Positions 6,104-46,735 of a stretch of DNA of 64,000 nucleotides are shown here, piece by piece; the stretch's first letter is position 1, and the number at the start of each line of letters is the position of its first letter. A program made the position numbers and the translations under genes. The DNA is taken from assembly GCA_958296135.2 (NCBI GenBank), contig CATQHZ020000001.1:1472001-1536000 (forward strand), written 5' to 3'. The notes below the pieces were generated by a model, which saw only the letters and a list, made by a program, of their open reading frames with translations, was not told where the DNA came from and did not search any database. This DNA comes from an uncultured Poribacteria bacterium (GTDB lineage: Bacteria; Poribacteria; WGA-4E; WGA-3G).

Positions 6104-8527
6104 TTAGTCCTTGAATGTGACGACGGTAACGCCTTCGCCGCCCTGGCTCTGCGGCGCGAGTTGAAATTGGGTGACGTGCGGGTTGTCTCGCAATTCCTCG
6201 TGAACCGCTTTGCGCAAGGCTCCTGTCCCTTTGCCGTGGAGAATGCGCACCGTTGGCACACCGGCAAGGTAGGCATCGTCAAGGTATTTATCCGTAATCT
6301 CTACCGCCTCGCTCACCAGCATGCCCCGAATGTTGAGTTCACTTTGGATAGTGTTTGCCTTGCTATACTGAATATCCAGCACGGACGTTGAGATGTTTGC
6401 AACCTCACGTTTCGGTTGAATTGTGTCAATGTCACCGTAGGCGACTTGCATGTGCATGTTGCCCACCGCAATTTTAAGCGGGCTACTGCTCTTCGGTACA
6501 ATGGAGGTGACTTCCCCGAATCGGTTCAATTTTTTGAGGCGCACCTTGTCCCCGATAGCAACTTTCGGCGTGGAGGGTTTCGGCTGTTTTTTGACAGGAG
6601 CCTTCGGTTTCAGCTGTTTTTTCGCCGTTTCGATTTTTGCGAACGCGGCTTGGATGCTTGCTTTAGCGGCATTTTCGCGGCGGATATCGGCGATAAGTTT
6701 CTCTACCGTGCGTCGCGCGTTGGAGACGATGTCTATTGCCTCGTTTTCGGCCTTCTCTTTTAAGACGCGCTGTTCTGTTTCAAAACTTTGAACGAGCCGC
6801 TCGTGTTTTTGGGTTGTCGCTTCAGCGTCGCGAATTTTCGCTTGGAGGCGTGCCCGCTCTGTTTCCAAGGCATTTTTCGTCTCTTGCAGTTCGACGAGTA
6901 ACTCTTCGACAGCGACGTTATTGTTGCCTAAGTGGGTTTGCGCTTCGGCGAGTACCTCGGCGGGGATGCCCAATTGCGCCGCAATTTTAATGGCGTTGCT
7001 ACTGCCCGGCACCCCCACCTGCACGCGATATGTCGGGCGTAGCGTCGCCCAGTCGAATTCCATTGAGGCGTTTTCCATCTGTGCTTGGGTATGCGCATAC
7101 GCCTTGAGCGCGCCGTAGTGTGTTGTGACGATGGTGTTAACCTGGTGTTGCGCGAGCCAATCAAGTAGTGCCATGCTGAGCGCGGTGCCTTCACTCGGGT
7201 CTGTGCCGGCACCGATTTCATCTAACAGCACGAGCGTGTGTGTGTTATGAGCATCGGCGATATGTTCAAGCATCTCGGCGATTTTCGTCATGTGCGAGGA
7301 AAAGGTGCTCAGATTCTGTTCGATGCCTTGTTCATCGCCGATGTCGGCGAAGATTTGATGGAAGATAGCGGTTTGACTTCCCTTCGCGGCGGGGATGTGC
7401 AGACCGGATTGCGCCATCAGTGCCAGCAATCCTACTGTTTTGAGGACGACGGTTTTTCCGCCGGTATTCGGTCCGGTGATAACGAGCGTTTTAAACGATT
7501 TGCCGATATGGATGTTTGTTGGCACGACGCGCGGCGGGAGGGTGTTCCTGTCTTGTTCAGTCAGCGGCGGTGATGCCTTTTTCAGATGGAATTCAAGCAG
7601 TGGGTGTCGTGCGTCAACGAGTTTGACAATGCCGCGGGTATTCAACACAGGTTCAACGGCGTTCAGTGTGATGCTGAAACGTGCCTTAGCGTTCAGAAAA
7701 TCGAGTTCCGCCAGCAGTTCCAAGGCGAGTTCAAGTTCGTGTAGGTTCTCCCGCACTTCGTCTGTCAGTGTGAGGAGGATGCGTCGGATTTCGCGAAGTT
7801 CCGCTTCGGCTGCTTCATGGAGCGCGTTGTTCATTTCAACGATGGCTAGAGGTTCCATAAAGAAGGTAGCACCACTCGTCGATTGCCCTTGGACGACACC
7901 GCGGAAAAATGCCCGCGCCTCCTGTTTGATTGGCAAGACGTAGCGATTGTTCCGGGAGGTGATTACCGGTTCCTGAATGGATTTCAGGTAATCCGGTGAG
8001 CGAAGCATCGCCTCTAATTTTTCATGGACATTTTGACGGAGACGCGACAATTTTCGGCGAATGGCACGCAGTTCCGGGCTGGCTCTATCTAGGATTTCGC
8101 CATCGAGGCTGATGCAGTCGGCAACGGCTTTGACTAACGCCGGAAATGATGGGAGCGCGTCCACGATTGAGAAGAGGTGTGGCAGCTCTTCCGGATTGCG
8201 TTTCGCAAACGCGTTGTGGATATCCGATGGAATCCGCGCGACTTTGCTGATATCGAGGAGTTCTTCTGCGTCTAAGATTGAACCGGCTTTGGCGGCGTGA
8301 CGTAGGGAGTTTCCGATGTGTTTTAGGCCACCCAACGGAATCCCGCCGTAGAGTTGCTGGAAAGTTTTTGCTTCGCTGCACAACTTCTGAAGTTGCCGCA
8401 CCGTGTCGACATCATCGTAAGGCGTGAGTGCCTCGACGCGCGCTGCACCGAGTTGCGAGGCGGTATACTTTTTCAGCAGCACCTTCATTTTATCGTATTC
8501 TAAGACTGTTTCAACGCCGGTTAACAT
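6104..8527 (-). CDS. mutS2: Endonuclease MutS2
   Basis: ITGPNTGGKT, LSTFSSHM, LDEIGAGTDP, C-terminal Smr domain (HGKGTGAL, GGEGVT). Confidence 0.95.
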   Translation of the reverse strand: MLTGVETVLEYDKMKVLLKKYTASQLGAARVEALTPYDDVDTVRQLQKLCSEAKTFQQLYGGIPLGGLKHIGNSLRHAAKAGSILDAEELLDISKVARIPSDIHNAFAKRNPEELPHLFSIVDALPSFPALVKAVADCISLDGEILDRASPELRAIRRKLSRLRQNVHEKLEAMLRSPDYLKSIQEPVITSRNNRYVLPIKQEARAFFRGVVQGQSTSGATFFMEPLAIVEMNNALHEAAEAELREIRRILLTLTDEVRENLHELELALELLAELDFLNAKARFSITLNAVEPVLNTRGIVKLVDARHPLLEFHLKKASPPLTEQDRNTLPPRVVPTNIHIGKSFKTLVITGPNTGGKTVVLKTVGLLALMAQSGLHIPAAKGSQTAIFHQIFADIGDEQGIEQNLSTFSSHMTKIAEMLEHIADAHNTHTLVLLDEIGAGTDPSEGTALSMALLDWLAQHQVNTIVTTHYGALKAYAHTQAQMENASMEFDWATLRPTYRVQVGVPGSSNAIKIAAQLGIPAEVLAEAQTHLGNNNVAVEELLVELQETKNALETERARLQAKIRDAEATTQKHERLVQSFETEQRVLKEKAENEAIDIVSNARRTVEKLIADIRRENAAKASIQAAFAKIETAKKQLKPKAPVKKQPKPSTPKVAIGDKVRLKKLNRFGEVTSIVPKSSSPLKIAVGNMHMQVAYGDIDTIQPKREVANISTSVLDIQYSKANTIQSELNIRGMLVSEAVEITDKYLDDAYLAGVPTVRILHGKGTGALRKAVHEELRDNPHVTQFQLAPQSQGGEGVTVVTFKD

Positions 8528-8786
8528 CGTTTTTTCCTCAGAATCGTTCTGGGGCAGGCGTTTTCCTGCGTTAGGAGCTGGTGAGCCATCGCTGTTTGAG
8601 GGTGTTTCAGTTCCTCTTGCGATGCGTCAATTTTTCCTTTTGTTCGCGCTGCTTTTTGGGCTGCGTTGCAACGATGCTCTGGGGGATACCGATGACAACG
8701 GCGATGCGCGCGGTTAACGTCAACAGCGGCATGAAGAGCATATCCAACGTGTCAAAAAGATTTAGCGTGCCTTCCGGGAGAAATGC

Positions 8787-11096: not shown

Positions 11097-11178
11097 ATTT
11101 TTAATAGTCTACCACATGCGTACGCGAATTGTCAAGATAAAATTGCAAGGCGACATGTCGTTTTCCCGTGCCCGGTTT

Positions 11179-11208
11179 GTAAGGGCGGATAGAGACATCC
11201 GCCCTTAC
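11179..11208. repeat. REP family C (GGGCGGATAGAGACATCCGCCCTTAC)
   Basis: Near-identical copies at 36017, 46766, 47341 and 53869; degenerate copy at 20693. Confidence 0.85.
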
Positions 11209-11242
11209 GCACTGAGGGAATGTCCCTGCAAATCGGTAGCCC

Positions 11243-12531: not shown

Positions 12532-12601
12532 GTAGGCTCGGTTTGAAAGCGTCTACGGTGTCGCCCTGGTTGGGGTAGGCGCGGTTTTTAGCCGCGCCTA
12601 C
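12532..12601. repeat. Two REP family B hairpins (GTAGGCGCGGTTT..CCGCGCCTAC)
   Basis: Palindromes related to copies at 20648, 26125, 54913 and 56698. Confidence 0.8.
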
Positions 12602-13558: not shown

Positions 13559-13621
13559 CGTAGTCATGGCGAGGGAAACCCTCGGCGATTCGCGCTCGCT
13601 GGGTTTTCCCTCGCGCTACGG
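13559..13621. repeat. REP family A long hairpin; contains the stop codon of the R-M gene
   Basis: GGCGAGGGAAACCCTCGGCGA...CCCTCGCGCTACGG. Confidence 0.8.
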
Positions 13622-16600
13622 GCCCCGGAATTTGTCAGGTAACGCCTCAATAATCTTCAACGTCTCCAAACTGACGGTGATGACTGAACCGATGAGGTTC
13701 ACGATATACCGCGGCTTCTCCGCATCGCTCGGGTCGTTCACAATCCCACTCCTCGGGTCTGACTTGACTCGATACTGGTTCACTACCCACTCTAACGCCG
13801 AATACTGTCCCAACCGATACGCTAAAGCCTCCTGTGGAATCCCCTCCAACGTCAAAAATTGGTTATAGATGAGTTGTGTCTTGTCTTTGGATAACTTCAT
13901 CCGTTTGACGCGGAAATCAAGTTGCTTCGTCGCGTTTTCCACGAAGGTAAGCGGGTACTGCGGTTGTGTCTCATAATGAACGTGGAGTTCGGCGAGCTGC
14001 GCGCCGGCATCGGCAAATGCCCGGAAATCCTCGGCATAGGGAAGGTGCGGTAAATCGCGCTTGAGATCGGCGGTGTAACGTTCGCGATAGTCCGGATGGT
14101 GCAGGATGCCGTAGGTATAGTTGAAAATATCCCACTTCGTGAGGGTGTCGTCGCCGTAGTGCGCGCGGAAGTTTTCTAGTGCCCAATCGGTGATGTTTTC
14201 TCGGCGGTTGGTGCCGTCTTCGTCGTAAATGTAGAAGGGAAAGCACTGGTTGGCATCAAGCGTAATGAGTGCTGTATTCGGGATGACATTTGTCACACAA
14301 CACCAAAACGGCGCGCGGCCACCAGGACCAGGTACACAAATTACGCGATTCTCTCCTTCGGTTTCTGGATTCGGAAAGGTAATCGGGAAGATGGATTTTC
14401 GGTGCGTGAGGACGTTGTCAAAAAATAGGTTCGTTTTCGTAAAGGGACGAAAGAGGGCCCGGCGAATTTTTGATGGCGAAAATTCGGCGCGTTGTCCGCT
14501 CACCAATTTCTGTTTTAGCCCTGAGCTCCACTTGATTTTGGCGTTATCGTCTACGACAAAGTCATCGACGTGTGCGCGGGAGACTTCGGGTGTGCCCTGC
14601 CACCTGAGCATCTCCATATTGTAAGTGTCAATGGTGCATTTGACCTTTTCGGTGAGCGTAGTTCGGTTAAAATTGTAGAGCCAGGCATCTCTCGCGGTCT
14701 GGCATCCTATGCCGTATTGATGGAAAATGGCACCGGAGACTTCGCCTTTGCTTTTTTTCGCTGTCTGACTTCCGATTGGGATGAAGGTGTCAAAGTCTGC
14801 CTGAAGCCCTTCGGTGAGCCAGGTGTGCCGTTTATCGGGTTGAAGCGTTTGCCACTCGATGTTGCCAACGTGTTCGGTTTGCGCGAGGAACTCGAATTTC
14901 TTGCTTTTGTTCCACGTGTCGTCAGTGCGGTAGTAGAAGATGCGCGCTGTCGGGGCTGGGAGGGTTTTCCTATCGGAGGTTGTCGAGACCGGGAGGCCTC
15001 TCCTACTGGAAGTTGTCGGGGCTGAGAGGTCCCTCCTACTGGAAATCGAGACCGGGAGGTCTCTCCTACTGGAAGTCGGGGCTGGGAGGTCTCTCCTACA
15101 GGGGTTTTTGACGAACAGATTGATGCTCACGCCGACTTGGATGCTGAACACGTTCGCGTTGGAGGCGAGTTTGTCTTTCCGTGCGTTTCCACCCAGGTCG
15201 AGGAGCCAGAGCGCGTCAAACTCTTCGGCGAGATGTTTGCGCATGCCATCAAACGACGTGCTGTCCAGGAAGCTGCGATTCGTCACGAGTGCGATGATGC
15301 CTTCTTCCCCAATCCGGTCTGCTGCCCATCGGATTGCTTTGACGTAAGCGTCGCCCAATGCTTTCTTGGTTGATGCAGCCGAGGCCTGCGAGTAGGTTTC
15401 TTGGACCCGCTTGTTTAGTGCTGGGTATTTCTGATTTTTGTTGTTATCGTTCTCATTCTTCTGCCCGACGTTATAGGGCGGATTTCCGATGACGATAAAC
15501 ATCGGTGCTGCCTTCTGCTTCTCGACGCGCTCGGTATTTTCGATGGTTAATAGCGATATCTGCCGGTCTTCCGCCAAATCGAACGTGTCCACGAGGGAGA
15601 TGCCTTTGAAGGGGAGGTATTCTGTCGTGGTATCGTAAAACTCGTGTTCAATGTTAAGGCTGGCGATGTAGTAGGGCAATAACAAGACTTCGTTGCACCA
15701 GATTTCTGAGCGGTATTTCGCCTCAAGTTTCGTTTTGGGGATTTCGCGCATGAGCCGCACGATGAAGTTTCCTGTGCCGACAAACGCATCGATGATGTGA
15801 ACGCCTTCATCGGCGAGGGAGCGTCCGAATTCGGTTTTGAGGAGCTGTTCAACGCTCTTCACCATGAAATCGACAATCGGCTGCGGGGTGTAGACGATGC
15901 CGTGCGTGTCTGCCTTTTTGATGGAGAAGCCTTGGAAAAATTGTTCGTAGACGGTATTGAGGAAGTGCTGTTTCTGCGCGAAGTCAACGAGCGTTGCTGC
16001 CTCGCGTTCGATGGCGCGGTAGAACCGGTCGAGTTTTTGAAGGAACACGCCGCGGCTGAACGCCTTGGATGCGAGTGCATCGATGACCTTCTCGATTTCG
16101 CGTGCGATGACGTTGCGCCGCGTAAAATCGGGCGTGTTAAAAACGGTGCGGAAGGTGCGTTCTGTCAAGAGGTGCTGGATGAGCATTTCCTCCACGGCTG
16201 CCTTGGAGAGGTTTGGGTTAATAGCGGCTTGGCAGAGTTGATGGAAATCGGCGAACGCTGTCTGGAATTGTGTGTTGGTTCGGTGTTGCTTCTTGATGAG
16301 TTCCTGCGCTTCGCGTCCGAGTTCTGGCACACGCACTTTAAATTCAGCGACAGCGGCTTCCCATTCGGCGGCGTTTTCGCGTTCGTAGGAAAAGAATGCT
16401 TCTAGCACGGAGACAAGCGTGCTCGGTTCAGTGATGTTTTCGTCAAGGACGAGGTGTCCGTTCTGATATAAAATGGCGCGTTCGGGGGTTTGGAAGAGGA
16501 TGTTGTCCTGGGGGTAGCCGGCGTTGAATTTCTTTTCGATTTCGGCGCGGAGATTGCCCTTGACACCTTTCGCTTCCCAGGTGCCGCGGGGTAGGCTGTG

Positions 16601-16828
16601 TTCGTCAAGCATCGCGCCATCGAGACGGAGAGGGTTTCTGCCGGGGATGCGGAGCGTGTATTCGCAGATAAGCGTCCAGTCGCGTTGTCGCGCGCATGTG
16701 TCCAAAAGTGCTTGAAAGGCGGCGCGGACGGCAGTTTCGTGGGTTACGCCGTGTTGTTGATACCTGTCGAGGGCGGCGTAATAGGCGGTTATGGATTTGT
16801 GGTTTGGTTTTATGTTAAGTGTTGGCAT
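13616..16828 (-). CDS. Single-polypeptide Type IIG-like restriction-modification enzyme (nuclease + N6-MTase + LlaBIII-type C-terminal specificity domain, no helicase)
   Basis: N-terminal DG...WEAK PD-(D/E)XK motif, GIVYTP, DAFVGTG SAM motif, IGNPPY, RRENITDWAL/DPRSGIVND type ISP C-terminus. Confidence 0.88.
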   Translation of the reverse strand: MPTLNIKPNHKSITAYYAALDRYQQHGVTHETAVRAAFQALLDTCARQRDWTLICEYTLRIPGRNPLRLDGAMLDEHSLPRGTWEAKGVKGNLRAEIEKKFNAGYPQDNILFQTPERAILYQNGHLVLDENITEPSTLVSVLEAFFSYERENAAEWEAAVAEFKVRVPELGREAQELIKKQHRTNTQFQTAFADFHQLCQAAINPNLSKAAVEEMLIQHLLTERTFRTVFNTPDFTRRNVIAREIEKVIDALASKAFSRGVFLQKLDRFYRAIEREAATLVDFAQKQHFLNTVYEQFFQGFSIKKADTHGIVYTPQPIVDFMVKSVEQLLKTEFGRSLADEGVHIIDAFVGTGNFIVRLMREIPKTKLEAKYRSEIWCNEVLLLPYYIASLNIEHEFYDTTTEYLPFKGISLVDTFDLAEDRQISLLTIENTERVEKQKAAPMFIVIGNPPYNVGQKNENDNNKNQKYPALNKRVQETYSQASAASTKKALGDAYVKAIRWAADRIGEEGIIALVTNRSFLDSTSFDGMRKHLAEEFDALWLLDLGGNARKDKLASNANVFSIQVGVSINLFVKNPCRRDLPAPTSSRRDLPVSISSRRDLSAPTTSSRRGLPVSTTSDRKTLPAPTARIFYYRTDDTWNKSKKFEFLAQTEHVGNIEWQTLQPDKRHTWLTEGLQADFDTFIPIGSQTAKKSKGEVSGAIFHQYGIGCQTARDAWLYNFNRTTLTEKVKCTIDTYNMEMLRWQGTPEVSRAHVDDFVVDDNAKIKWSSGLKQKLVSGQRAEFSPSKIRRALFRPFTKTNLFFDNVLTHRKSIFPITFPNPETEGENRVICVPGPGGRAPFWCCVTNVIPNTALITLDANQCFPFYIYDEDGTNRRENITDWALENFRAHYGDDTLTKWDIFNYTYGILHHPDYRERYTADLKRDLPHLPYAEDFRAFADAGAQLAELHVHYETQPQYPLTFVENATKQLDFRVKRMKLSKDKTQLIYNQFLTLEGIPQEALAYRLGQYSALEWVVNQYRVKSDPRSGIVNDPSDAEKPRYIVNLIGSVITVSLETLKIIEALPDKFRGP
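14948..15102. repeat. Five tandem REP family D units (about 30-33 nt) in frame within the R-M gene
   Basis: Alternating TCGGGGCTGGGAGG..CCTAC and TCGAGACCGGGAGG..CCTAC units; same motif is intergenic at about 29607. Confidence 0.88.
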
Positions 16829-16834
16829 GCTGTT

Positions 16835-16864
16835 AGTATACCTTAAGTTTACAATACGTTGCAA
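16835..16864 (-). promoter_or_regulatory. Sigma70 promoter of the R-M gene (probably leaderless mRNA)
   Basis: TTGCAA-N18-TATACT, ATG 6 nt downstream, no SD. Confidence 0.55.
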
Positions 16865-16890
16865 GTTAAAATTTTTGTGCTGAAAAGGTT

Positions 16891-16919
16891 TTGACATTTG
16901 CCGCGAGTTATGCTATAAT
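16891..16919 (+). promoter_or_regulatory. Consensus sigma70 promoter of the PIN gene
   Basis: TTGACA-N17-TATAAT with extended TG. Confidence 0.8.
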
Positions 16920-17755: not shown

Positions 17756-20641
17756 GTGAAACGATTGCTGCTATTTCTGCTGATGCTGTGCATCGGTGTC
17801 TATTCGTCTGCATCTTTCTCACAGACACGTTCGGTTCAAACCGCGCAGGCCCGCGAGCCGGCTCGGCTTACCGGCAAGGTAATCTGGCCGGGCCACGATG
17901 TGTCCCATGCAAGCGTGTCTGTCTATCGGGATGAAGGGCTCACGCAACCTTACCTCAGTGGTATCCCGCAGCGTAGCGATGGGTATTTCTCTCTCAGTGT
18001 AGAAGCTGGGCGGTATTACCTCGTCGCGTATGTGGATGTGGACAAGTCCGGTCGTTTCGGTGCTGGCGATGGGTTCGGCATCTTCGGTGTCACGCAGTGG
18101 ACAGACACCTCACAAAACTACCAGGTAGTTGAGGTGCGTGAAGGACAAAGGGTTCAGGGACTTAACATCCCGATAACTGCCCGTGCCCAACTGGAAGATG
18201 GCGCGGTTAAAATTGTGCCTGTGTCGCAATATCGGCCCAGCGAAGACCAGGAGTTTCAAACGGCATTAAGCAAAGCGACAAGTGGCTGCCGTGGTAGGCT
18301 CATATTGGGAGATGCCTCCGATTCGGCGATTGATTTGTCGGGGCGTCGCGCCTTAATTCTCGCCTATACCGATTTATCGTGGAAATATCGCGCGGGCATC
18401 GCGCCGGTAGCCTCTTCCGGTGATTGGGCACTCAACTTGGCCCCTGGGAAGTATTACCTCATGGCGATTCTGGATAACAACGGTACGAATAGCCTGGATG
18501 CCGGTGACAATTTCGGGTTCTACGGGGTTGAAAATATGCGGGGACGCGGCGCGATTCCGCAGCCTGTGCTGGTTTCGGCCAACAAGTTCACCGAGAATCT
18601 GGCGATAGCCATTACCGCTACGTATGATGCTGTCCGCAAGAACGAGCGGTATCAGGCGATGCTTGCAGCGGGTGTGCCCATAACCGTCACCGGCACGGTA
18701 TCGCCGTCGCAATCGGCACCGGTGCGTATTCACGCCTATGCCGACACGGCCTTCGTTACACCGCTTGCTAGTGCCGAGACTGATGAGAGTGGGACGTTTC
18801 GCTTCAAACTGCCGCCCGGTGACTACTACCTCATCGCTACGCTGGATGCCGATGAAAATGGCAGATACAGCGAGGGCGACGGATTGGGTGGCTACGGGAC
18901 GATGGACATCACGGCGCAACGGCCTACGGCGTTAGTGCTGTCGGAAGGCGAATCCGAGCGCGCCGTGGACATCCTCATCAGCGCGCGCTACGATGCGAAG
19001 GGGCAGCTCCACGCCGAGCTGCCGGGCATTGAGACAGATATTGAACAGGGCGGCATTGCCGGCCGAATCACGTTTGATGGAAAGCCGCCTGTCTCCGGGC
19101 GCGCTTCCAGAGCGCGCCTACTTAAAAATGCAGAAGTGCAAGATGTGACAACGTCACTTCGGACAGAGGTTCAAGGTGTCCTAAGCCTTGCCTATACCCC
19201 GGATTTCCAGTCGCCGGTTCCGATGCCTATCATGCTGACGGACGCTGGAACGTATCATGTCAACGTGCTACCTGGGCGTTACTACGTGATGGCTGTTATC
19301 GACAGGAACGGCGATGGGAACATCGGCATCGCGGATGGCGTTGGGCTTTACGGCACCCGCTTCCCTGTGCGCGGTGAGCCTACGCCGGTCATCGTCTATC
19401 CTGGCCGCACGACATCACACATTGATATTGAGATGTTCGCAACCTACATTGACGAAAAGGGCACGATGGCAGAAATTGAGGATGGCGGCCGTTGGGAGAT
19501 GCGGAGACGTTACGGACAACCGGAGGATGTTTTCAGATTCACTCGCAATGGGCAGCAATACGAGGAGTGGAAATATTGGGCGCGGGGCATCGGATTCCTA
19601 TGGCAGGCGGATGGCACAGGCTGGGATTTCGTTGGGGGTGAAGAGTTTAAGCCGAAAAAAGCGGCACTTGCTGACGAGGGCGAGGGGCTGCATGGCGATG
19701 TGGCAAGCAATCCGACAGAACCGATGCGCAGCGGCGAGGGGATAGCAGTTTCAGGCTTTCCATTGGCAGAACGGCACCTCATCTATTTTGCGTATGACAA
19801 CGTCGTCTGGCACCTTTCCGCCGTTGCTGGGTTGGTGGCGTTAGGTGCCGGCACTCACCCCACGGTTGCCAGCGATGGTGCCCTGCTCTATCAGGCTCCA
19901 GAGGGCTCTATTGTCTTCCACGATAACGCCGCGCCGAAAGGGCGCGTGGTGCTGCACGCGCGGGCGATGGCACGCGATGCCGCCCTCTCGCCGGATGCGA
20001 ACTATATCGCCTACATCCGCACCGAGTTTGGGAATCGCAGCCGCGTCGTCATTCGGCACATTCGGAGTCAGGAGGAGTTTATTGTCCCTTCCACGGCGCA
20101 GCACAGTTTCACGCCCGCGTGGAATGCGGATGGAACACTGCTCGCCTACGTCACAGAAGAAACGGTTGAAAGTTCACCAGAAATGCGAGACTTGACAACG
20201 CCAAGTCTGCCTGCTAAGACAGAGCGACATCCCCCGGTAGCAGCCAGACAACCGCTAGGAAATACAGCCAATATTTACGCCTTCGACCGGGTGAGAAACA
20301 GCGTTGAGCCGATTGTCGTCTCCCCACATGCCGATACGGAACCCACCTGGTCTTCATCAAATCCGAATCAGCTCGCCTTCACCCGAACTGCAGGGGCAGA
20401 TGGGATGCCACAGATTTGGCTCGTCACCTATTCTGGTACCGGTGTGCCGACAGAACAACAGTTGACGCAGCGCGGCGGTGGCCATCCGGTGTGGATGTCC
20501 CCCGAGGGCCGCTGGATTTTGTATGAAAACAACGGACAGCTCTGGACAATTGATACGCTGAGCCCCGAAACTAGCGAGATGCCGCTGCTGCATAACGGAC
20601 AGGTGGTATTCGGGCATCAGCCGGCTGTTGTTAGCCGTTAA
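17756..20641 (+). CDS. Large secreted protein: four beta-sandwich repeats with DxDxxG Ca-binding loops plus C-terminal TolB-like propeller
   Basis: Signal peptide; four G(R/K/D)YY(L/V)xAxxDxx(x)GxxxxxDxxGxxG repeats; PAWNADG/PTWSS/PVWMSP PD40 motifs. Confidence 0.72.
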   Translation: MKRLLLFLLMLCIGVYSSASFSQTRSVQTAQAREPARLTGKVIWPGHDVSHASVSVYRDEGLTQPYLSGIPQRSDGYFSLSVEAGRYYLVAYVDVDKSGRFGAGDGFGIFGVTQWTDTSQNYQVVEVREGQRVQGLNIPITARAQLEDGAVKIVPVSQYRPSEDQEFQTALSKATSGCRGRLILGDASDSAIDLSGRRALILAYTDLSWKYRAGIAPVASSGDWALNLAPGKYYLMAILDNNGTNSLDAGDNFGFYGVENMRGRGAIPQPVLVSANKFTENLAIAITATYDAVRKNERYQAMLAAGVPITVTGTVSPSQSAPVRIHAYADTAFVTPLASAETDESGTFRFKLPPGDYYLIATLDADENGRYSEGDGLGGYGTMDITAQRPTALVLSEGESERAVDILISARYDAKGQLHAELPGIETDIEQGGIAGRITFDGKPPVSGRASRARLLKNAEVQDVTTSLRTEVQGVLSLAYTPDFQSPVPMPIMLTDAGTYHVNVLPGRYYVMAVIDRNGDGNIGIADGVGLYGTRFPVRGEPTPVIVYPGRTTSHIDIEMFATYIDEKGTMAEIEDGGRWEMRRRYGQPEDVFRFTRNGQQYEEWKYWARGIGFLWQADGTGWDFVGGEEFKPKKAALADEGEGLHGDVASNPTEPMRSGEGIAVSGFPLAERHLIYFAYDNVVWHLSAVAGLVALGAGTHPTVASDGALLYQAPEGSIVFHDNAAPKGRVVLHARAMARDAALSPDANYIAYIRTEFGNRSRVVIRHIRSQEEFIVPSTAQHSFTPAWNADGTLLAYVTEETVESSPEMRDLTTPSLPAKTERHPPVAARQPLGNTANIYAFDRVRNSVEPIVVSPHADTEPTWSSSNPNQLAFTRTAGADGMPQIWLVTYSGTGVPTEQQLTQRGGGHPVWMSPEGRWILYENNGQLWTIDTLSPETSEMPLLHNGQVVFGHQPAVVSR

Positions 20642-20647
20642 TGTTCC

Positions 20648-20721
20648 GTAGGCGCGGTTTCAAATCGCGCCTATAAGGCAGCTTTGGCTAACGGGCGGAT
20701 ATGAACGACATCAGCCCTTAC
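20648..20721. repeat. REP family B and C hairpins
   Basis: GTAGGCGCGGTTTCAAATCGCGCCTAT and GGGCGGAT...ATCAGCCCTTAC. Confidence 0.75.
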
Positions 20722-22312: not shown

Positions 22313-24460
22313 ATGAGGACGATAGTGGCAACGTGCAATCTCAATCAGTGGAGTCTTGACTTTGAAGGCAACACGGCGCGCATTATTGAGTCAATAGAAA
22401 TAGCGAAAGCGCGCGGTGCTCGGTATCGGTTGGGGCCGGAATTGGAAATCACCGGCTATTCCTGCGAAGACCATTTTTTGGAGCAGGATACGCTGCGCCA
22501 TAGTTGGGAAGCCCTTGCTTGCATTCTTGCGGGCGGTTATACGGATGGCATCTTGTGCGATATCGGTATGCCGGTGATGCACAAAAATGTCCGGTATAAC
22601 TGCCGTGTCTTCGTTTTAGATGGCGAGGTGTTGCTTATTCGTCCGAAACTGATCCTTGCAGGCGATGGCAATTATCGCGAGCCGCGCTGGTTTGCCGCGT
22701 GGCAGCACGGTTGGACAACCGAGCCCTATCCGCTTCCCGGCGAGATTGCGGAGATTACCGTGCAAAGCACTGTGCCTATCGGCATCGCCGCTATCGCGTT
22801 AGGCGATACCCTCTTGGCATCGGAGACGTGCGAGGAGTTGTTTGCCCCGCTGAGCCCGCACATCGCCTTTGGCAACGCCGGCGTAGAAATCATCGGCAAT
22901 GGCTCAGGTTCACACCATGAGTTACGCAAATTGGATACCCGTATCGCGCTTATCCGGAACGCAACGGCGAAGAATGGCGGCGTTTACCTCTATGCGAATC
23001 AGCAGGGTTGCGATGGGGGCCGTCTCTATTTTGATGGTTGCGCGCTCATTGCGCAAAACGGCGAAATCCTCGCGCAAGGTTCACAATTCTCGCTTGCGGA
23101 TGTAGAAGTCGTCACGGCGGCGGTGAACTTACACGATGTCCGTTCTTATCGTGGGGCCAAGGCGAGTCGCGCCGTGCAGGCGAGCCAAACGGGGCAGCTG
23201 CCGCAGATTGATGTCGATTTTAAGTTCGCTGAGGTTCGTGGCACGGCGAGGGCCAGGCCCTCGCCCTACGGGAATGAGGAAGTTTGGGGCACGGCGAGGG
23301 CCAGGTCTTTGCCTTACGGGAATAAGGAGGTGCCGCGCTATCACACGCCGGAAGAAGAAATTGCCCTCGGTCCAGCCTGTTGGCTGTGGGATTACCTGCG
23401 CCGTTCGGGTGCAGAAGGTTACTTCATTCCGCTTTCCGGCGGTGCGGATAGCGGTGCAGTTGCGACGCTCGTCGGTTCAATGTGTCAACTCGTCGCGAAA
23501 GCCGTTCGCGAGCGAGAGGCGACGGTTATCGCTGACGTAGAACGGTGGCTGCGAGATAATGAAACGCCTGACGTTTTCGCGGACCCGAGTGTGCTAGCCA
23601 ATCGGCTGCTCTATACTTGCTACCTCGGCACAGAGAACAGTTCCCGCGACACACAGAAGCGCGCCAAACAACTTGCTGAGCAGATAGGTGCGTATCATTT
23701 GGATATCAACATGGACGCGCTCGTTGGTGCCTTGAAAACGCTCTTTACGCGCATCACCCGAAAGACACCGCGTTTCAAAGTGGAGGGTGGGACGCACACG
23801 GAGAATCAGGCACTCCAAAATATCCAGGCGCGTTTGCGGATGGTGCTCAGTTATTTGTTCGCGCAAATGCTGCCATGGGTGCGCAATCGGCGGGGGACGT
23901 TGCTTGTCTTAGGCACCGGTAACGTTGACGAGGCCCTGCGCGGCTACCTCACCAAATACGATTGCAGCAGCGGCGACATCAACCCTATCGGTGGGATTAG
24001 CAAGCGCGACCTGCGCCGATTTTTGGGATGGGCGCAGTGCCACCTCGGTTATACCGCGCTTGGCGAGATTGTGGCGGCACCGCCAACCGCCGAGTTGGAA
24101 CCTATCACCGAGAACTATACGCAGACAGACGAGGAAGATATGGGGATGTCCTATGCCGAATTGAGCCGATTCGGGCAGCTCCGAAAAATGGAGCGGTGTG
24201 GGCCTGTCAGTATGTTTGAAAAATTAGTCGAGGAGTGGGATACCTTGCAGCCGCGCGCGGTCGCGGAGAAGGTGAAGCACTTTTTTACCTATTATGCCAT
24301 CAATCGGCACAAAATGACGACGTTAACGCCATCTTACCATGCCGAGTCCTATTCGCCGGACGATAATCGGTTCGATCTTCGGCAGTTCCTCTATCAGACG
24401 CGCTGGACGTGGCAGTTCCGCCGTATTGACGCGCTCGTGAAGAAATTGGAGGGGCCGTAG
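22313..24460 (+). CDS. nadE: Glutamine-dependent NAD+ synthetase, eukaryotic (NADSYN1/Qns1) type
   Basis: Nitrilase domain ([16 protein letters not shown]), synthetase motifs [32 protein letters not shown]. Confidence 0.93.
23231..23326. repeat. Two 48-nt tandem REP family A units in frame in the nadE linker
   Basis: GGCACGGCGAGGGCCAGGCCCTCGCCCTACGGGAAT x2, encoding [24 protein letters not shown]. Confidence 0.88.
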
Positions 24461-24480
24461 TGTCGCGTAGTTCCCATTAC

Positions 24481-24520
24481 CGTAGGGCGAGGCGTAGGGC
24501 GAAGGGCTGTCCCTCGCCGT
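24481..24520. repeat. REP family A
   Basis: CGTAGGGCGAAGGGCTGTCCCTCGCCGT. Confidence 0.75.
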
Positions 24521-24531
24521 GCTTGTCACTT

Positions 24532-26115: not shown

Positions 26116-26124
26116 TTGCCCCTG

Positions 26125-26151
26125 GTAGGCGCGGTTTGAAACCGTACCTAC
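26125..26151. repeat. REP family B
   Basis: GTAGGCGCGGTTTGAAACCGTACCTAC. Confidence 0.75.
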
Positions 26152-28564: not shown

Positions 28565-29038
28565 TCAAGTGCCCAGTTGCGCCAATTTTTCGGCGCGATA
28601 TGCGAAAATCTTTTCGATATCCCGTCTCACGAACAACGCATTTACGATTGAATTTCCCCACACGGCGTATGCCACCTCATCCCCAACGACGGTGCCGCCC
28701 GGTGTCTCAGCGAACGTATGCGTATGCCGCCAGCGACGATAGGGGCCTCGGCGTTGCTCATCAACGAAGTAGGCGTGCCCTCCCGGTTTTGATACGTTAG
28801 CGCGCGGGGGCTCCCATGCGGTTATCTCACTCTGCCAACGGAGGGGGATGCCGCGGAGTTTCAACTGATAGTCAATCAACGTGCCGACTTGCATCGTAAT
28901 CGGTGCTGGTGTCAGCACTTCAAACCGAAGCCATGGCGGTGTAATCGCCGCGAGGTTGTGCGCATCCGAAAAGAACGCGAAGACTTCGGCGATAGGCTTC
29001 TCAATCGTCTGCTGCGTTGTGAAACGGAAGGTTTTCAT
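28565..29038 (-). CDS. SRPBCC family protein
   Basis: VFAFFSDAHNLAAITPPWL, WQSEITAWEPP, FVDEQRRGPYRRWRHTH, IFAYR. Confidence 0.88.
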   Translation of the reverse strand: MKTFRFTTQQTIEKPIAEVFAFFSDAHNLAAITPPWLRFEVLTPAPITMQVGTLIDYQLKLRGIPLRWQSEITAWEPPRANVSKPGGHAYFVDEQRRGPYRRWRHTHTFAETPGGTVVGDEVAYAVWGNSIVNALFVRRDIEKIFAYRAEKLAQLGT

Positions 29039-29400: not shown

Positions 29401-29425
29401 AAAGGTTTCTCCTAGTGCGATGGCT

Positions 29426-29675
29426 CGCGAGGGACAGGCCCTCGCGCTACGGTTGAGTGGCTATTCTTTCCCGTAGGGCGAGGGCCTGTCCCTCGCCATG
29501 TCTCGGTTCTGGGGAGTTTGCGAGGGCCTGTCCCTCGTGCTCCGGTTGCCGAAAGGCCCTGCAATCGGGACAAGGATGTTCCTCTGCAATCTGTCCCTCA
29601 CAAGCATCGAGACCGGGAGGGCTCTCCTACAAGGGAGGATGTCCCTCCTACTGCAATCTGTCCCTCTTGCTACGG
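29426..29675. repeat. Mosaic cluster of REP families A and D (BIME-like)
   Basis: Several GCGAGGG..CCCTCG hairpins, GAGACCGGGAGGGCTCTCCTAC and repeated CTGCAATCTGTCCCTC. Confidence 0.8.
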
Positions 29676-32770: not shown

Positions 32771-34207
32771 CTATAGAACAATCTGCCCTATCAACGTATG
32801 CGCCGTGGTGCTCTCAATGCAAACATCAACCATGTCCCCTACCGCGCTGTTCGCCATCGGAAACACCGTCGTTTTGAAGCCGTCTGTTTTTCCGTAATAC
32901 CGGTTTGCGTCGCGGCGGGATTCGCCTTCTACCAGCACAGTAAACGTCTCGCCGATAGCGGCATCGTTAATCTCTGCAGAGATTTTCTCTTGGAGCGCGA
33001 TAATTTCCCTGAGTCGTCTCCCCTTCTCCGTTTCCTGCACATCGTCTGGGAACGCCTTATGCGCGAGGGTGCCCTCCCGGTCGGAATACTTGAACATGAA
33101 CGCCGAATCGTAACGGATGTCTGCCATCATCTCATACGTCTGCATGAATTCCGCTTCGGTTTCACCACAGAACCCGACGATGATATCTGTGGTGAGGACG
33201 ATGTTGGGGATGCGTTCGCGGAGTTTCGCGACTAAGTCGCGGTATTCCTCCGCCGTATAGGTGCGGCGCATCCGCTCCAACACCGATGTAGAACCGGATT
33301 GCAGCGGCAGGTGCAGGTGGTTACAGACGTTTGGCGAGTTCGCCATTGCGTCTATCATGCTGTCGGTGGCATCTGCTGGGTGCGGAGACGTAAAGCGCAC
33401 GCGTTCTAGTCCGTTCACGTTGCTAACGGCATGGAGCAATTCGCCGAAGTCAGAACCACTTGTTCCGGTGGGCGTGTTCTCCCTATTTTGACTTTCATAG
33501 CGATAGGAGTTGACAGTCTGGCCGAGGAGGACTACCTCCTTGAACCCCTGTTCTACTAGTTTTTCGACATCTTCGACGAGCAGTTTGAGCGGCAGGCTTC
33601 GTTCTCTGCCTCGCACGAACGGGACGATACAGAAGGTGCACATCTTATCGCATCCCCGCTGGATTGTGAGCCAGGCGCGAATTCCCTCCTTTCGGATAGG
33701 GGCGATATCGGCGTAATCCTCGCTTTTGTCCAACCGCACGCCTAAAAACGGGTCGCGATTTGTCACAGCATTCAGTGCCATCGGCAGGTTCCGATAGGCA
33801 TCGGGGCCCATCACCAGATCGACGTACGGTGCGGCCTCCACCAGCCGGTCGCGGAGGTGCTGCGCCATGCAGCCACACACGCCGATGATGAGCTCCGGGT
33901 CGCGGCGTTTACGGTGGTTCAACTGCTTTAACCGATTGAGCACCTTCGTCTCGGCATTCTCCCGAATGGCGCAGGTGTTGAGTAGCACGACATCTGCATC
34001 GTCCAAGTGTGACACCGTCCGATGTCCACTTTGAGTGAGAATGCCGGCCATCAGTTCGCTGTCGCTGACGTTCATCTGACAGCCGTAAGTCTCGATGTAT
34101 ATCTTACGCGCTTGCGAGAGGGCCGCGGTGTGTTGTAACCCTGCTTTCTGATAGATGGGTAAACGAGTGATTGTGCTTTTTTCCACGTTTTGTGCCTCTA
34201 TAGCCAT
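32771..34207 (-). CDS. miaB: tRNA-2-methylthio-N6-dimethylallyladenosine synthase
   Basis: TYGCQMN, NTCAIRE, GCDKMCTFC radical SAM motif, RFTSPHP, TRAM domain. Confidence 0.95.
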   Translation of the reverse strand: MAIEAQNVEKSTITRLPIYQKAGLQHTAALSQARKIYIETYGCQMNVSDSELMAGILTQSGHRTVSHLDDADVVLLNTCAIRENAETKVLNRLKQLNHRKRRDPELIIGVCGCMAQHLRDRLVEAAPYVDLVMGPDAYRNLPMALNAVTNRDPFLGVRLDKSEDYADIAPIRKEGIRAWLTIQRGCDKMCTFCIVPFVRGRERSLPLKLLVEDVEKLVEQGFKEVVLLGQTVNSYRYESQNRENTPTGTSGSDFGELLHAVSNVNGLERVRFTSPHPADATDSMIDAMANSPNVCNHLHLPLQSGSTSVLERMRRTYTAEEYRDLVAKLRERIPNIVLTTDIIVGFCGETEAEFMQTYEMMADIRYDSAFMFKYSDREGTLAHKAFPDDVQETEKGRRLREIIALQEKISAEINDAAIGETFTVLVEGESRRDANRYYGKTDGFKTTVFPMANSAVGDMVDVCIESTTAHTLIGQIVL

Positions 34208-35141: not shown

Positions 35142-35147
35142 TTATTA

Positions 35148-35293
35148 CCGTAGGGCGAGGGTCTGTCCCTCGCCGTGCGCCGATAGCTACGGCTTGTTTC
35201 CGTAGGGCGAGGGTCTGTCCCTCGCTGTGCGCCGATAGCTACGGCTTGTTTCCGTAGGGCGAGGGCCTGTCCCTCGCCGTGCGCCGATAGCTA
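35148..35293. repeat. 52-bp tandem repeat (about 2.8 copies) of a REP family A unit
   Basis: CCGTAGGGCGAGGGTCTGTCCCTCGCCGTGCGCCGATAGCTACGGCTTGTTT starting at 35148, 35200 and 35252. Confidence 0.9.
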
Positions 35294-36005: not shown

Positions 36006-36016
36006 GAATTGGCGGC

Positions 36017-36042
36017 GGGCGGATAGAGACATCCGCCCATAC
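36017..36042. repeat. REP family C
   Basis: GGGCGGATAGAGACATCCGCCCATAC. Confidence 0.8.
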
Positions 36043-42314: not shown

Positions 42315-42401
42315 GTTTCTGCGCCAAATTTGATTAAGATTTACGGAAATTTTAAACGAATTCCATTTTTTTTGTCAAGCGAAACCGTGGGTAGCTCTGT
42401 G

Positions 42402-42454
42402 CATGGCGAGGGGAGCCCTCGGCGATTCGCGTTCGCCGGGCCCTCGCCCTACGG
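42402..42454. repeat. REP family A long hairpin
   Basis: Homologous to copies at 2626 and 13559. Confidence 0.8.
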
Positions 42455-42488
42455 AGATTCGGCGGGAGATTGGAAGACGGCTCGCATC

Positions 42489-45563: not shown

Positions 45564-45577
45564 ATTTTCTTCCTTGA

Positions 45578-46735
45578 TTAGCGCATTAGCGTAACAATCA
45601 GCGTTGTGATGGCAGAGGCAGTGGAGACGATGGTGCTTACCAAACCCCAATTCCATTGAAACCGCTTATCTACCTCCAAAATGTCGCCCGGGTAGAGTAA
45701 AATCGCGTCCGTGCCTATGTTGAATGTAAACGGATGCTCAAGACTGGTGCCATCGCGACGATGAATCGTGACATTTTTCCGGTCTGCCGCTTCTTCAAAC
45801 CCACCCGTTAAGGCAATAGCCTGTGCAATCGTCAGTGGGCCGCGGATGCGCTGCGCGCCGGGAATGCGCACGTAGCCGATGACGTAAATCGGCTCTACCT
45901 TGAACGCATTCGGCACGAACAGCACATCCCCATCGGACAGTAGGATAGCCCTTCCTGTCTCGGCATTTGCCGCTCGGTTCGGCGTGGATTTCCAAAACTG
46001 CTCTGTCACGCTGAATTCGGAGAGGGCTCCGTCGCGGCTCACCTTGACGAGTGCCCCGAGGTCTGCCTCTTCCGTAGAGCCGCCGGCCCTTGCCAACGCT
46101 TCGGCGATGCCGATTGTGCCGCGGATAAAAAGTTTGCCCGGCACCTGTACCTGTCCCTGAACCTCCACCACGCTGAGCGGCATGACGAACACTAAATCGC
46201 TGACATTCACTTGGACATCGCGGTAAGGTTGATTTATGGAGATATCATAGGTTTCAACCTTTCCCGCGGTAGGCACGGTTTTCAAGCGCGCCCGCTCACG
46301 AATGAGTTGCACCTGTTGGACATCAGCATTCTCTGCCATTCCGCCTGCAAGGGTTATCGCGCGGTATAGCCCGATGTCTGTTTTTGGTGAGATAACGTAA
46401 CGCCCCGGGGTTTTCACTGCGCCGCCGACGAAAATGCCGTTCTCTTGCGGCACAGGGGATACCATGATGACGGGATTGCTGACGAGGTTCTCCGAGACGA
46501 GAAAGTCACGAATGCGTTGGCTCACCGCGTCCGCTGTCTTGCCGGCGACGTGAAGATCGCCGATGAAGTAGCTCATCATGCCGTCTTCTCGGACTTGCAC
46601 GGTTTGCGTATATTCGGGTTGCCCGATGATGGCAATGAGGAGCGTATCGCCTTCGCGGATGCGATACACATCGCCGAGAACCGAATTGTTCGCTGTCCAA
46701 ATAAGGAAAATTAGGGTGAAGAGAATTTTTTGCAT
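45578..46735 (-). CDS. Polysaccharide export protein with SLBB domains (Wza-like)
   Basis: YRIREGD, VREDG, GAVKTPGRY, repeated AxxxAGG SLBB motifs. Confidence 0.85.
   Translation of the reverse strand: MQKILFTLIFLIWTANNSVLGDVYRIREGDTLLIAIIGQPEYTQTVQVREDGMMSYFIGDLHVAGKTADAVSQRIRDFLVSENLVSNPVIMVSPVPQENGIFVGGAVKTPGRYVISPKTDIGLYRAITLAGGMAENADVQQVQLIRERARLKTVPTAGKVETYDISINQPYRDVQVNVSDLVFVMPLSVVEVQGQVQVPGKLFIRGTIGIAEALARAGGSTEEADLGALVKVSRDGALSEFSVTEQFWKSTPNRAANAETGRAILLSDGDVLFVPNAFKVEPIYVIGYVRIPGAQRIRGPLTIAQAIALTGGFEEAADRKNVTIHRRDGTSLEHPFTFNIGTDAILLYPGDILEVDKRFQWNWGLVSTIVSTASAITTLIVTLMR

What the first reader, a model, noticed from the sequence alone, without database searches (positions are those of the whole stretch)
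7533..46294. Intergenic GTAG-type REP families repeatedly inserted in frame inside protein-coding genes
Seen: three of the four palindromic families found between genes (A GGCGAGGG..CCCTCGCCCTAC, B GTAGGCGCG..CGCGCCTAC, D GAGACCGGGAGGGCTCTCCTAC) also occur inside about eight intact ORFs in only 64 kb. These are mutS2, the R-M enzyme, the 961-aa secreted protein, nadE, wzi, SRPBCC, miaB and the SLBB protein (twice). They occur in different frames and orientations and at different stages of decay. Known: REPs mobilised by RAYT transposases are almost always extragenic; coding insertion is the hallmark of Rickettsia palindromic elements. Inference: a lineage-wide process creating new peptide loops, including in housekeeping enzymes.
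Basis: partly seen in the sequence, partly recalled or inferred. Interest (0 to 1): 0.8.

Follow-up and report, generated by a model that had tools for sequence, protein, structure and literature searches.

The report
REP hairpin repeats inserted inside genes
Short mobile DNA hairpins that normally sit between genes have landed in frame inside many working genes of this sponge-symbiont-like bacterium, adding small extra peptide loops; the phenomenon is real and unusually frequent here, but it has been described before in other bacteria.

Summary
The core observation holds. The genome carries about 2,000 GTAG-tagged REP hairpins in several families. Two Y1 (RAYT-type) transposase genes are each flanked by arrays of the same REPs.

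Most units are intergenic: 1,750 of 2,027. However, 151 exact-core units lie deep inside ORFs of at least 300 aa, at 103 sites in 95 ORFs. Codon-shuffled controls give 0-3.

In the window, five genes carry REP inserts that the same-genus orthologue lacks:
- the Type ISP enzyme
- the 961-aa protein
- nadE
- wzi
- the SRPBCC protein

One SLBB site is an older insert shared by the genus. The miaB insert is only faintly REP-like. The mutS2 site, the other SLBB site and the miaB "SDREGT" site are not REP insertions.

The same DNA unit is read in up to five frames. The frame that would read TAG in frame occurs 0 of 151 times. Spacing between in-gene units is a multiple of 3 in 41 of 42 pairs. In RsgA, close relatives carry 1-5 tandem 11-aa units.

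Intragenic GTAG REPs were catalogued in 2013 (Opitutus terrae and others). This is therefore a new, very dense member of a known kind, in Candidatus Poribacteria.

The parts
14939..15103 (-). Tandem array of 4-5 D-family REP units (GTAGGAGAGNCCTCCCGGTCTC type), read in frame as PCRRDLPAPTSSRRDLPVS... (55 aa). It sits inside the Type ISP R-M gene between the methyltransferase and Type_ISP_C domains.
   Evidence: D profile hits at 27.6, 14.1, 36.8 and 22.4 bits; 18 of 19 other orthologues or paralogues aligned have no comparable insert. The G002 orthologue carries a different, A-type insert at the same site.
13616..16897 (-). Host gene: Type ISP restriction-modification enzyme, a member of a family of dozens of paralogues.
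   Evidence: Type_ISP_C 334.8 bits, ISP_coupler, N6_Mtase, Eco57I; 38 matches in G000.
19093..19152 (+). 60-nt in-frame insert in the 961-aa CarboxypepD_reg/PD40 protein. It holds a B-family REP (19098-19121, GCGCGCTTCCAGAGCGCGCCTAC) followed by a second small hairpin.
   Evidence: empty site in G002; B profile 16.7/17.3 bits.
20195..20263 (+). Second 23-aa insert in the same protein relative to G002. It is not a REP. It carries a copy of a motif (ACAACCGCTAGGAA) that elsewhere sits just upstream of about 26 start codons.
23240..23320 (+). Two direct A-family REP units read antisense as [11 protein letters not shown]...[11 protein letters not shown] (27 aa). They lie in the linker between the CN_hydrolase and NAD_synthase domains of nadE.
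   Evidence: 30 loci aligned including G000's own; 22 of the 29 orthologues have a short linker of about 14-16 aa, and G001/G002 carry different inserts; A profile 32.3 bits; the segment is a gap against solved chain 6ofb_A.
25120..25156 (+). One A-family unit (AACGTAGCGCGGGGGGCTGTCCCTCGCGGT) read in sense as IPLNVARGAVPR, inside wzi.
   Evidence: absent in both same-genus orthologues; empty site in G002; 29.6 bits; it falls between predicted strands 185-198 and 211-217, but the model is poor (mean pLDDT 59).
28769..28798 (-). 30-nt unit GTAGGCGTGCCCTCCCGGTTTTGAT... (D/B hybrid type), read antisense as NVSKPGGHAY inside the SRPBCC (Polyketide_cyc) protein.
   Evidence: empty site in G002; the Pfam envelope spans the site.
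46267..46294 (-). B-like REP remnant read as RARLKTVPT in the Poly_export/SLBB protein. It is shared by the genus, and G001 has three tandem copies.
   Evidence: 18.1 bits.
33452..33487 (-). 12-aa insert (NRENTPTGTSGS) in miaB relative to G002, with only faint REP likeness.
   Evidence: no profile hit.
33061..33083 (-). miaB SDREGTLAH site. It resembles a D fragment but is not an insertion.
   Evidence: no indel of 4 aa or more here against G002; no hit.
7502..7594 (-). mutS2 variable loop. It is neither a REP nor an insertion.
   Evidence: a loop is present in all 30 loci aligned; no indel against G002; no hit.
45940..45961 (-). SLBB site 1, a weak D look-alike with 3 mismatches. Not supported.
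24477..24522 (.). A-family units between the nadE stop and the likely wzi start. They are intergenic.
29423..29653 (.). Intergenic REP cluster: an inverted A pair with 26-nt arms, plus D units.
35145..35282 (.). Three direct intergenic A units spaced 52 nt apart, which is not a multiple of 3.
63060..63253 (.). Intergenic REP cluster of A-type and long-form units.
12575..12601 (.). Intergenic B-family palindrome GTAGGCGCGGTTTTTAGCCGCGCCTAC. Further B units lie at 20646-20673, 26124-26150, 54911-54946 and 56696-56726. Long A forms lie at 2624-2682, 13567-13624 and 42399-42455.

Best explanation
These are genus-specific REP elements: 25-35 nt G+C-rich hairpins with a GTAG tag. They belong to a REP-RAYT system and are mostly intergenic. 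Copies have also been fixed inside protein-coding genes wherever the inserted length is a multiple of three, the frame in use has no stop, and the site is a tolerant loop or inter-domain linker.

Once inside a gene, units can duplicate or be lost in steps of whole units. This gives in-frame length variation between close strains. The added peptides are rich in Arg, Pro and Gly and are most likely neutral or slightly deleterious passengers.

Shown: the insertions, their DNA-level origin, the frame filter and the REP-flanked RAYT genes. Inferred: that the RAYTs perform the insertion, that the inserts are translated, and that they are mostly neutral.
For: (1) REP system. The commonest 14-mers in the genome are GTAG-tagged palindromes. 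There are 2,027 exact-core units, 1,750 of them intergenic.

(2) Transposases. There are two Y1_Tnp genes. The one at C1:3734400-3734870 scores 127.6 bits against NCBIfam REP_Tyr_transpos (cut-off 80) and has D arrays on both sides. The one at C1:4791068-4791604 scores 29.8 bits against Pfam Y1_Tnp (cut-off 23) and has A/C arrays on both sides.

(3) Insertion state. Five window genes have the REP where the same-genus orthologue has an empty site. Inserted lengths are 30, 36 and 60 nt.

(4) Not chance. There are 151 deep in-gene units against 0-3 in 10 codon shuffles. Profile hits of at least 15 bits number A 106, D 97 and B 109, against 0, 0 and 1 in shuffled CDS. That is 195 sites in 168 ORFs.

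(5) DNA origin, not a protein motif. The same unit is read in up to 5 frames and orientations, as VARGPVPR, RSAGACPPR, (A/G)DRP(S/P)RYG, GQA(L/P)ALR and RGTGPRAT. The sense frame that reads TAG occurs 0 of 151 times.

(6) The frame is maintained. In-gene unit spacing is a multiple of 3 in 41 of 42 pairs, against 162 of 443 intergenic pairs. At 83 of 103 sites both 80-codon flanks score best in the host frame.

(7) Real genes. In a random sample of 40 of the 95 hosts, 37 have Pfam domains. By my reading:
- 15 inserts lie within one domain: RsgA, two PfkB kinases, UPF0182, S13 peptidase, P-type ATPase, GT9, DUF6785, AP_endonuc_2, DctM, FtsJ, Wzy_C, ABC_tran, DAO and MnmE.
- 9 lie between two domains: RecG, ClpB, Type ISP and others.

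(8) Copy-number variation. RsgA homologues more than 90% identical carry 1-5 tandem 11-aa units (324-367 aa). More distant Poribacteria proteins of 313-318 aa have none.

(9) Composition. R+P+G make up 42% of REP-coded residues against 19% in the rest of the host proteins.
Against: - No expression or protein evidence: no RNA run holds the stretch.
- No insert-free allele was seen. The only runs holding the stretch are contigs of one sample, probably the source of the assembly.
- 20 of 103 sites have a weak coding score on one flank. These may be ORF extensions or fusions called by my crude gene finder.
- Family C (225 units) never occurs deep in genes although three of its frames are open. The stop filter alone does not explain this.
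- No target-site rule could be read from the few empty sites.
- No RAYT was found in G001, which is 86% complete, although it has REPs.
- RAYT2 is below the NCBIfam cut-off (57.4 against 80).
- Both structure models were poor.
Confidence: 0.85

Rival explanations
1. The in-gene matches are chance or convergent look-alikes, or conserved protein motifs, rather than inserted elements.
For: This is true for some cited sites. mutS2, SLBB site 1 and the miaB SDREGT site show no indel and no profile hit.
Against: 151 observed against 0-3 in codon shuffles. Orthologues have empty sites. The same DNA is read in several frames.
Confidence: 0.02
2. The host ORFs are pseudogenes, miscalled fusions or assembly artefacts, so the REPs are not really in coding sequence.
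For: 20 of 103 sites have one weak flank. My gene calls come from a home-made codon-usage caller. 3 of 40 sampled hosts have no Pfam domain.
Against: By my reading, 24 of 40 sampled hosts have domain matches on both sides of, or spanning, the insert in one frame. Spacing is a multiple of 3 in 41 of 42 pairs. The TAG frame occurs 0 of 151 times. RsgA proteins with inserts come from several independent assemblies.
Confidence: 0.05
3. The REP segments reach and spread within genes mainly by recombination, gene conversion or replication slippage rather than by RAYT-catalysed insertion. The RAYT association is then incidental for the coding copies.
For: Tandem arrays with unit-wise copy-number change in RsgA and the SLBB protein fit slippage. 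Three Type ISP paralogues carry D arrays at the same codon, which could be inheritance or conversion. No target-site signature was found.
Against: Single units appear at otherwise empty, unrelated sites in many unrelated genes. Different families occupy the same loop in sister species: A in G000 against D in G001/G002 for nadE, and D against A for the Type ISP gene.
Confidence: 0.12
4. The inserts are selected for a function, such as variable surface loops or linker-length tuning, rather than being passengers.
For: The same loops are hit repeatedly in different lineages: the nadE linker, a wzi hairpin, the Type ISP junction and an SLBB loop. Close strains differ in in-frame copy number.
Against: The hosts are unrelated cytoplasmic, membrane and secreted proteins. 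REPs are about seven-fold depleted in deep coding sequence, 7.4% against 51% for random positions. Repeated hits are also expected if only a few sites are tolerant.
Confidence: 0.1

Closest known systems
Intragenic GTAG-tagged REPs of Opitutus terrae, Thauera, Xanthomonas and others (Di Nocera, De Gregorio & Rocco 2013, BMC Genomics 14:522, PMC3733652; passages and a supplement search read)
   Same: Short GTAG-tagged hairpins. RAYT genes are flanked by the same repeats. Most copies are intergenic, but singles, dimers and clusters sit in frame inside known genes and encode roughly 7-80 aa. DNA-repair genes are among the hosts (uvrA in that paper; UvrA-like and RecG here).
   Different: The phylum is different: record titles say Candidatus Poribacteria. 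The REP sequence families are new and genus-restricted. The load is higher: 151 exact units at 103 sites here, against 70 supplement rows for O. terrae. This work also documents unit-wise copy-number variation between close strains and different families at the same loop in sister species.
Rickettsia palindromic elements (RPE). The source here is the review PMC10969869 (passages read), which cites 44 insertions in R. conorii genes. The original Ogata et al. papers are recalled, not read.
   Same: Palindromic repeats inserted in frame into many unrelated genes, including housekeeping genes, and tolerated as extra peptide segments.
   Different: The review describes RPEs as about 150 bp, and they have no known cognate transposase (recalled). 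Di Nocera et al. place RPE-4 and RPE-6 in the CGTC class, not the GTAG class. Here the units are 25-35 nt, GTAG-tagged and associated with RAYT genes.
Classical REP/BIME/REPIN-RAYT systems of Escherichia coli and Pseudomonas
   Same: A GTAG tag, imperfect palindromes, hundreds of copies, inverted doublets, and a Y1 HUH transposase flanked by its own REPs.
   Different: Those are described as essentially extragenic. Here 7% of exact units lie deep inside long ORFs.

Membership tests
RAYT-associated GTAG REPs | Short (20-40 nt) imperfect palindrome able to form a hairpin | tested here: met
   Family consensus blocks of 25-41 nt have 7-bp G+C stems such as GCGAGGG/CCCTCGC. The B units GTAGGCGCG...CGCGCCTAC are full palindromes.
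RAYT-associated GTAG REPs | Conserved GTAG (CTAC) tetranucleotide at one end | tested here: met
   The unbiased top 14-mers all carry CCGTAG or GTAGG; see also the consensuses.
RAYT-associated GTAG REPs | High copy number, predominantly intergenic | tested here: met
   2,027 exact-core units, 1,750 of them intergenic. Random positions are only 14% intergenic (2,815 of 20,000).
RAYT-associated GTAG REPs | A Y1 (HUH) transposase gene of RAYT type flanked by the same REPs | tested here: met
   RAYT1 scores 127.6 bits against NF047646 (cut-off 80) and has D arrays on both sides. RAYT2 scores 29.8 bits against Pfam Y1_Tnp (cut-off 23) but only 57.4 against NF047646 (below cut-off), and has A/C arrays on both sides. 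HVH and HFH motifs are read directly in the translations. The catalytic Tyr was not assigned.
RAYT-associated GTAG REPs | Mobilisation of the REPs by the RAYT | not testable with these tools
   Only indirect evidence: orthologues have empty sites, and REP families and counts differ between sister species.
Intragenic REPs (sensu Di Nocera et al. 2013) | The REP lies entirely within an ORF of a known protein, in frame, with shorter homologues lacking it | tested here: met
   Five window genes. By my reading, 24 of 40 sampled hosts have Pfam matches on both sides of, or across, the insert.
Rickettsia palindromic elements | Sequence or size class of the RPE families (about 100-150 bp; CGTC tag for RPE-4/6) | tested here: not met
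   Units here are 25-41 nt with a GTAG tag. No sequence comparison with RPEs was run.

The most novel reading that the evidence does not exclude
In this lineage the REP-RAYT system may act as a generator of in-frame, length-variable peptide loops, in effect coding VNTRs, at a limited set of permissive hot-spot loops. That would give strain-level protein variation in envelope proteins (Wzi, the SLBB exporter, a secreted 961-aa protein) and in the linker of dozens of Type ISP restriction enzymes. Part of this variation could be selected in the sponge-symbiont setting rather than merely tolerated.
Probability: 0.1. Interest if true: 0.8.

Novelty: new member of a known kind. Interest (0 to 1): 0.5.

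Why it matters
This appears to be one of the densest known cases of palindromic-repeat insertion into coding sequence:
- about 100 exact-core sites, or about 195 sites by profile, in 5-8% of long ORFs here;
- 44 RPE insertions cited for R. conorii (PMC10969869);
- 70 supplement rows for O. terrae (PMC3733652).

Unlike Rickettsia RPEs, the candidate transposases are identifiable and sit among their own repeats. That makes the question "are in-frame palindromic insertions made by RAYTs?" directly testable in vitro.

There are practical consequences too. Gene callers and orthology or length-based quality checks on Poribacteria genomes will meet many lineage-specific Arg/Pro/Gly-rich inserts. REP-driven length variation may also confuse strain-resolved assembly.

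Tried and rejected
- Sequencing runs. No RNA holder was listed. The four runs that hold the stretch are contigs of one sample, probably the source of the assembly. They show the insert-bearing form with 0 differences. The 'joints' reported there are other REP copies. No empty-site allele was seen, and contigs cannot show absence.
- RsgA structure model from a 20-sequence alignment. Mean pLDDT was 37, so it was unusable for mapping the insert.
- wzi model. Mean pLDDT was 59 and pTM 0.62. It is used only as a weak hint that the insert lies in a hairpin between two strands.
- A k=11 repeat-word map was too noisy because of common coding words. It was replaced by k=13, then exact cores and profiles.
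- A strict GTAG...CTAC full-palindrome scan found only 3 sites, because most families carry the tag at one end only.
- Target-site inference from the G000/G002 empty-site alignments was ambiguous. The automatic DNA alignments for nadE and the R-M gene picked other REP copies and were not used.
- Earlier-findings look-up returned nothing for this genome.
- Literature. A search for Poribacteria + palindromic + repeat listed 31 papers. None of the 15 shown had a title or abstract start concerning REPs. A search for intragenic + 'repetitive extragenic palindromic' + RAYT found only 2 papers.
- Palindrome integrity of in-gene against other A units: 58% of 77 against 43% of 1,070 have a perfect second arm within 18 nt. 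The test is confounded by the long-loop variants, so no conclusion on age was drawn.


Full report
**What is in the window.**
- GTAGGCGCG: 8 matches against 0.66 expected.
- CCCTCGCCCTAC with at most 1 mismatch: 13 against 0.17.
- The 22-nt D motif with at most 3 mismatches: 4 against 0.

The window is G000:C1:1472001-1536000 of a 5.19-Mb genome in four contigs. The commonest 14-mers of the whole genome are GTAG-tagged G+C-rich palindromes, for example:
- CCGTAGCGCGAGGGCCTGTCCCTCGCGAT, component 14-mers at 230-490 copies.
- CCGTAGGGCGAGGG, 281 copies.
- GTAGGAGAGACCTC, 237 copies.
- CCGTAGGGCGCGGT, 218 copies.

Sources also name RsgA homologues that way. The lineage is therefore very probably Poribacteria.

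**Site-by-site check against orthologues.** I called genes with a simple codon-usage caller and named the hosts with Pfam. I then aligned each host with orthologues from 30 relatives and with the syntenic 80 kb of the same-genus genome G002.

Five genes carry a REP-bearing segment where G002 has an empty site:
- **Type ISP enzyme.** 55 aa made of 4-5 D units lie between the methyltransferase and specificity domains.
- **961-aa protein.** A 60-nt insert holds a B unit.
- **nadE.** Two A units (27 aa) lie in the inter-domain linker. The segment is a gap against the solved homologue 6ofb_A.
- **wzi.** One A unit codes 12 aa.
- **SRPBCC protein.** One 30-nt unit codes 10 aa.

One SLBB site (46267-46294) is a B-like remnant. 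It is present in all three genus members and missing in other genera. G001 has three tandem copies. It is an older insertion.

miaB has a 12-aa insert relative to G002, but with only faint REP likeness and no profile hit.

Three cited sites fail:
- **mutS2.** The loop is present at similar length in all 30 loci aligned.
- **SLBB site 1.** It has no indel and no profile hit.
- **miaB SDREGTLAH.** It has no indel. From memory it resembles a conserved methylthiotransferase motif; I did not test that.

The A units at 24477-24522 lie upstream of the likely wzi start.

**Genome-wide picture.** There are 2,027 exact-core units in nine sub-families:

| Location | Units |
|---|---|
| Intergenic | 1,750 |
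| Gene edges | 68 |
| Shallow in genes | 58 |
| Deep in genes | 151 |

"Deep" means at least 50 codons from both ends of an ORF of at least 300 aa. Of 20,000 random positions, 51% are deep.

REPs are thus strongly depleted in coding sequence but far from absent. The 151 deep units make 103 sites in 95 ORFs. Permuting codons within genes gives 0-3 matches in 10 trials.

Profile HMMs built from intergenic copies find more, including decayed units:

| Family | Real deep CDS, hits ≥15 bits | Shuffled CDS |
|---|---|---|
| A | 106 | 0 |
| D | 97 | 0 |
| B | 109 | 1 |
| C | 1 | 0 |

Merged, and counting both-strand hits of palindromes once, this is 267 non-overlapping hits at 195 sites in 168 ORFs.

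**Evidence that these are DNA insertions in working genes.**
- The same DNA unit is translated in several frames and both orientations. The A family gives VARGPVPR, RSAGACPPR, (A/G)DRP(S/P)RYG, GQA(L/P)ALR and RGTGPRAT. The D family gives VGETSRSR, RRDLPVS, IETGRSLL and RDREVSP.
- The one sense frame that reads TAG as a codon occurs 0 of 151 times.
- Adjacent same-strand units inside genes are spaced by a multiple of 3 in 41 of 42 pairs, against 162 of 443 intergenic pairs.
- At 83 of 103 sites both 80-codon flanks score best in the host frame. The other 20 are doubtful.

I drew a random sample of 40 of the 95 hosts. Of these, 37 have Pfam domains at E ≤ 1e-5. Comparing unit positions with domain envelopes, I read the sample as follows:

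| Position of the insert | Hosts |
|---|---|
| Inside one domain | 15 |
| Between two different domains | 9 |
| Domains on one side only | 8 |
| Unclear | 4 |
| No domain, or a match below cut-off | 4 |

- The 15 inside one domain are RsgA GTPase, two PfkB kinases, UPF0182, S13 peptidase, P-type ATPase hydrolase domain, GT9, DUF6785, AP_endonuc_2, DctM, FtsJ, Wzy_C, ABC_tran, DAO and MnmE N-domain.
- The 9 between two domains include RecG, the ClpB middle region and Type ISP.

REP-coded residues are 18% Arg, 12% Pro and 12% Gly.

**Dynamics.**
- The A pattern occurs 473 times in G000, 766 in G001, 3,907 in G002, and 0-1 times in the 28 other relatives.
- The D pattern occurs 206, 68 and 714 times in G000, G001 and G002. 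It occurs 6 times in G004, 1-3 times in one other genus, and was not found in the remaining relatives.
- Sister species carry different elements at the same loop. In the nadE linker, G000 has two A units while G001 and G002 have a D-like unit plus a microsatellite. At the Type ISP junction, G000 has a D array while G002 has an A pair.
- RsgA proteins more than 90% identical outside the insert have 1, 2, 3, 4 or 5 tandem 11-aa units (324, 335, 346, 357 and 367 aa). Poribacteria homologues at about 80% identity have none (313-318 aa).

So units are gained at new sites, and arrays expand or contract unit by unit while keeping the frame.

**The likely engine.** Two Y1 transposase genes exist.
- RAYT1 matches NCBIfam 'REP-associated tyrosine transposase' at 127.6 bits (cut-off 80). 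It lies between D arrays.
- RAYT2 passes Pfam Y1_Tnp (29.8 bits, cut-off 23) but not the NCBIfam cut-off (57.4 bits). It lies between A/C arrays.
- RAYT-family matches above cut-off occur in 17 of 31 genomes of the order. Other genera may therefore run their own REP families; I did not test this.

That the RAYTs insert the coding copies is an inference from this association and from what is known of IS200/IS605-type enzymes.

**Comparison with what is known.** Di Nocera et al. 2013 (PMC3733652; abstract, passages and a supplement search read) define GTAG and CGTC REP super-families. They report REPs inside genes of several species, note repair genes among the hosts, and list most intragenic GTAG REPs in Opitutus terrae (70 supplement rows). 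They equate R. conorii RPE-4 and RPE-6 with CGTC REPs.

A 2024 review (PMC10969869, passages read) calls the 44 RPE insertions in R. conorii genes unusually frequent.

The present case has the same nature. What it adds is a new phylum, new families, a higher load, identifiable RAYTs, and visible unit-wise copy-number variation. I found no paper on REPs in Poribacteria in the searches named under Tried and rejected.

**Verdict.** About a third of the cited sites are not REP insertions, and the phenomenon is already in print for other bacteria. It is a new and very dense member of a known kind.

Noticed in passing
window 13616-16897, and genome-wide: The Type ISP R-M-like enzyme belongs to a very large paralogue family: 38 matches in G000, 44 in G002 and 50 in G004. 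Most copies are about 1,030-1,050 aa. Length differences concentrate at the same junction (query aa about 576-626) where REP arrays sit.
   Followed up: partly
window 20195-20263; C1 genome-wide: A motif with consensus ...CAGCTGAACAACCGCTAGGAACAACAAAAAATG occurs about 26 times, typically ending at a start codon, like a shared leader or RBS region. One copy lies in frame inside the 961-aa gene as part of a 23-aa insert that G002 lacks.
   Followed up: partly
window 11177-11208, 36016-36038, 46766-46787, 47351-47370, 53869-53894: A further palindromic family, GTAAGGGCGGATGTCTCTATCCGCCC, has 35 exact core copies on C1. All five window copies lie between genes and none was seen inside a window gene.
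   Followed up: partly
L034 (G004 wzi), same loop as window 25120-25156: G004 has a 16-aa insert at the same wzi hairpin. Its DNA (GTAGCGCAAGGTTCCCGTGCCTCAGCG) looks like a decayed A unit, although the A pattern occurs only once in the whole G004 genome. Either this is an old relic that G001 and G002 lost precisely, or the same loop was hit independently.
   Followed up: partly
G002 genome: G002 holds 3,907 exact A-pattern units in 5.7 Mb, about eight times the G000 count. This is an exceptional REP load for a bacterial genome.
   Followed up: no
G000 contigs C2 and C4: Contig C2 (143,886 bp) has 36.8% G+C against 54% for the chromosome. Only 40% of it is called coding by the chromosome-trained model, so it may be foreign or a contaminant. 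C4 contains a run of more than 100 C.
   Followed up: no
C1:221439-227123, 513547-516093 and others: Several near-identical 848-aa WD40-repeat paralogues each carry two D units (GEIETGRSLL...) near the C-terminus. These in-gene REPs were multiplied by gene duplication, not by separate insertions.
   Followed up: no
Genome-wide: Family C (GTAGGGCGCGGT..., 225 units) and sub-family A4 (68 units) never occur deep in genes, although three or more frames are stop-free. Family D1 does so in 60 of 309 units.
   Followed up: partly
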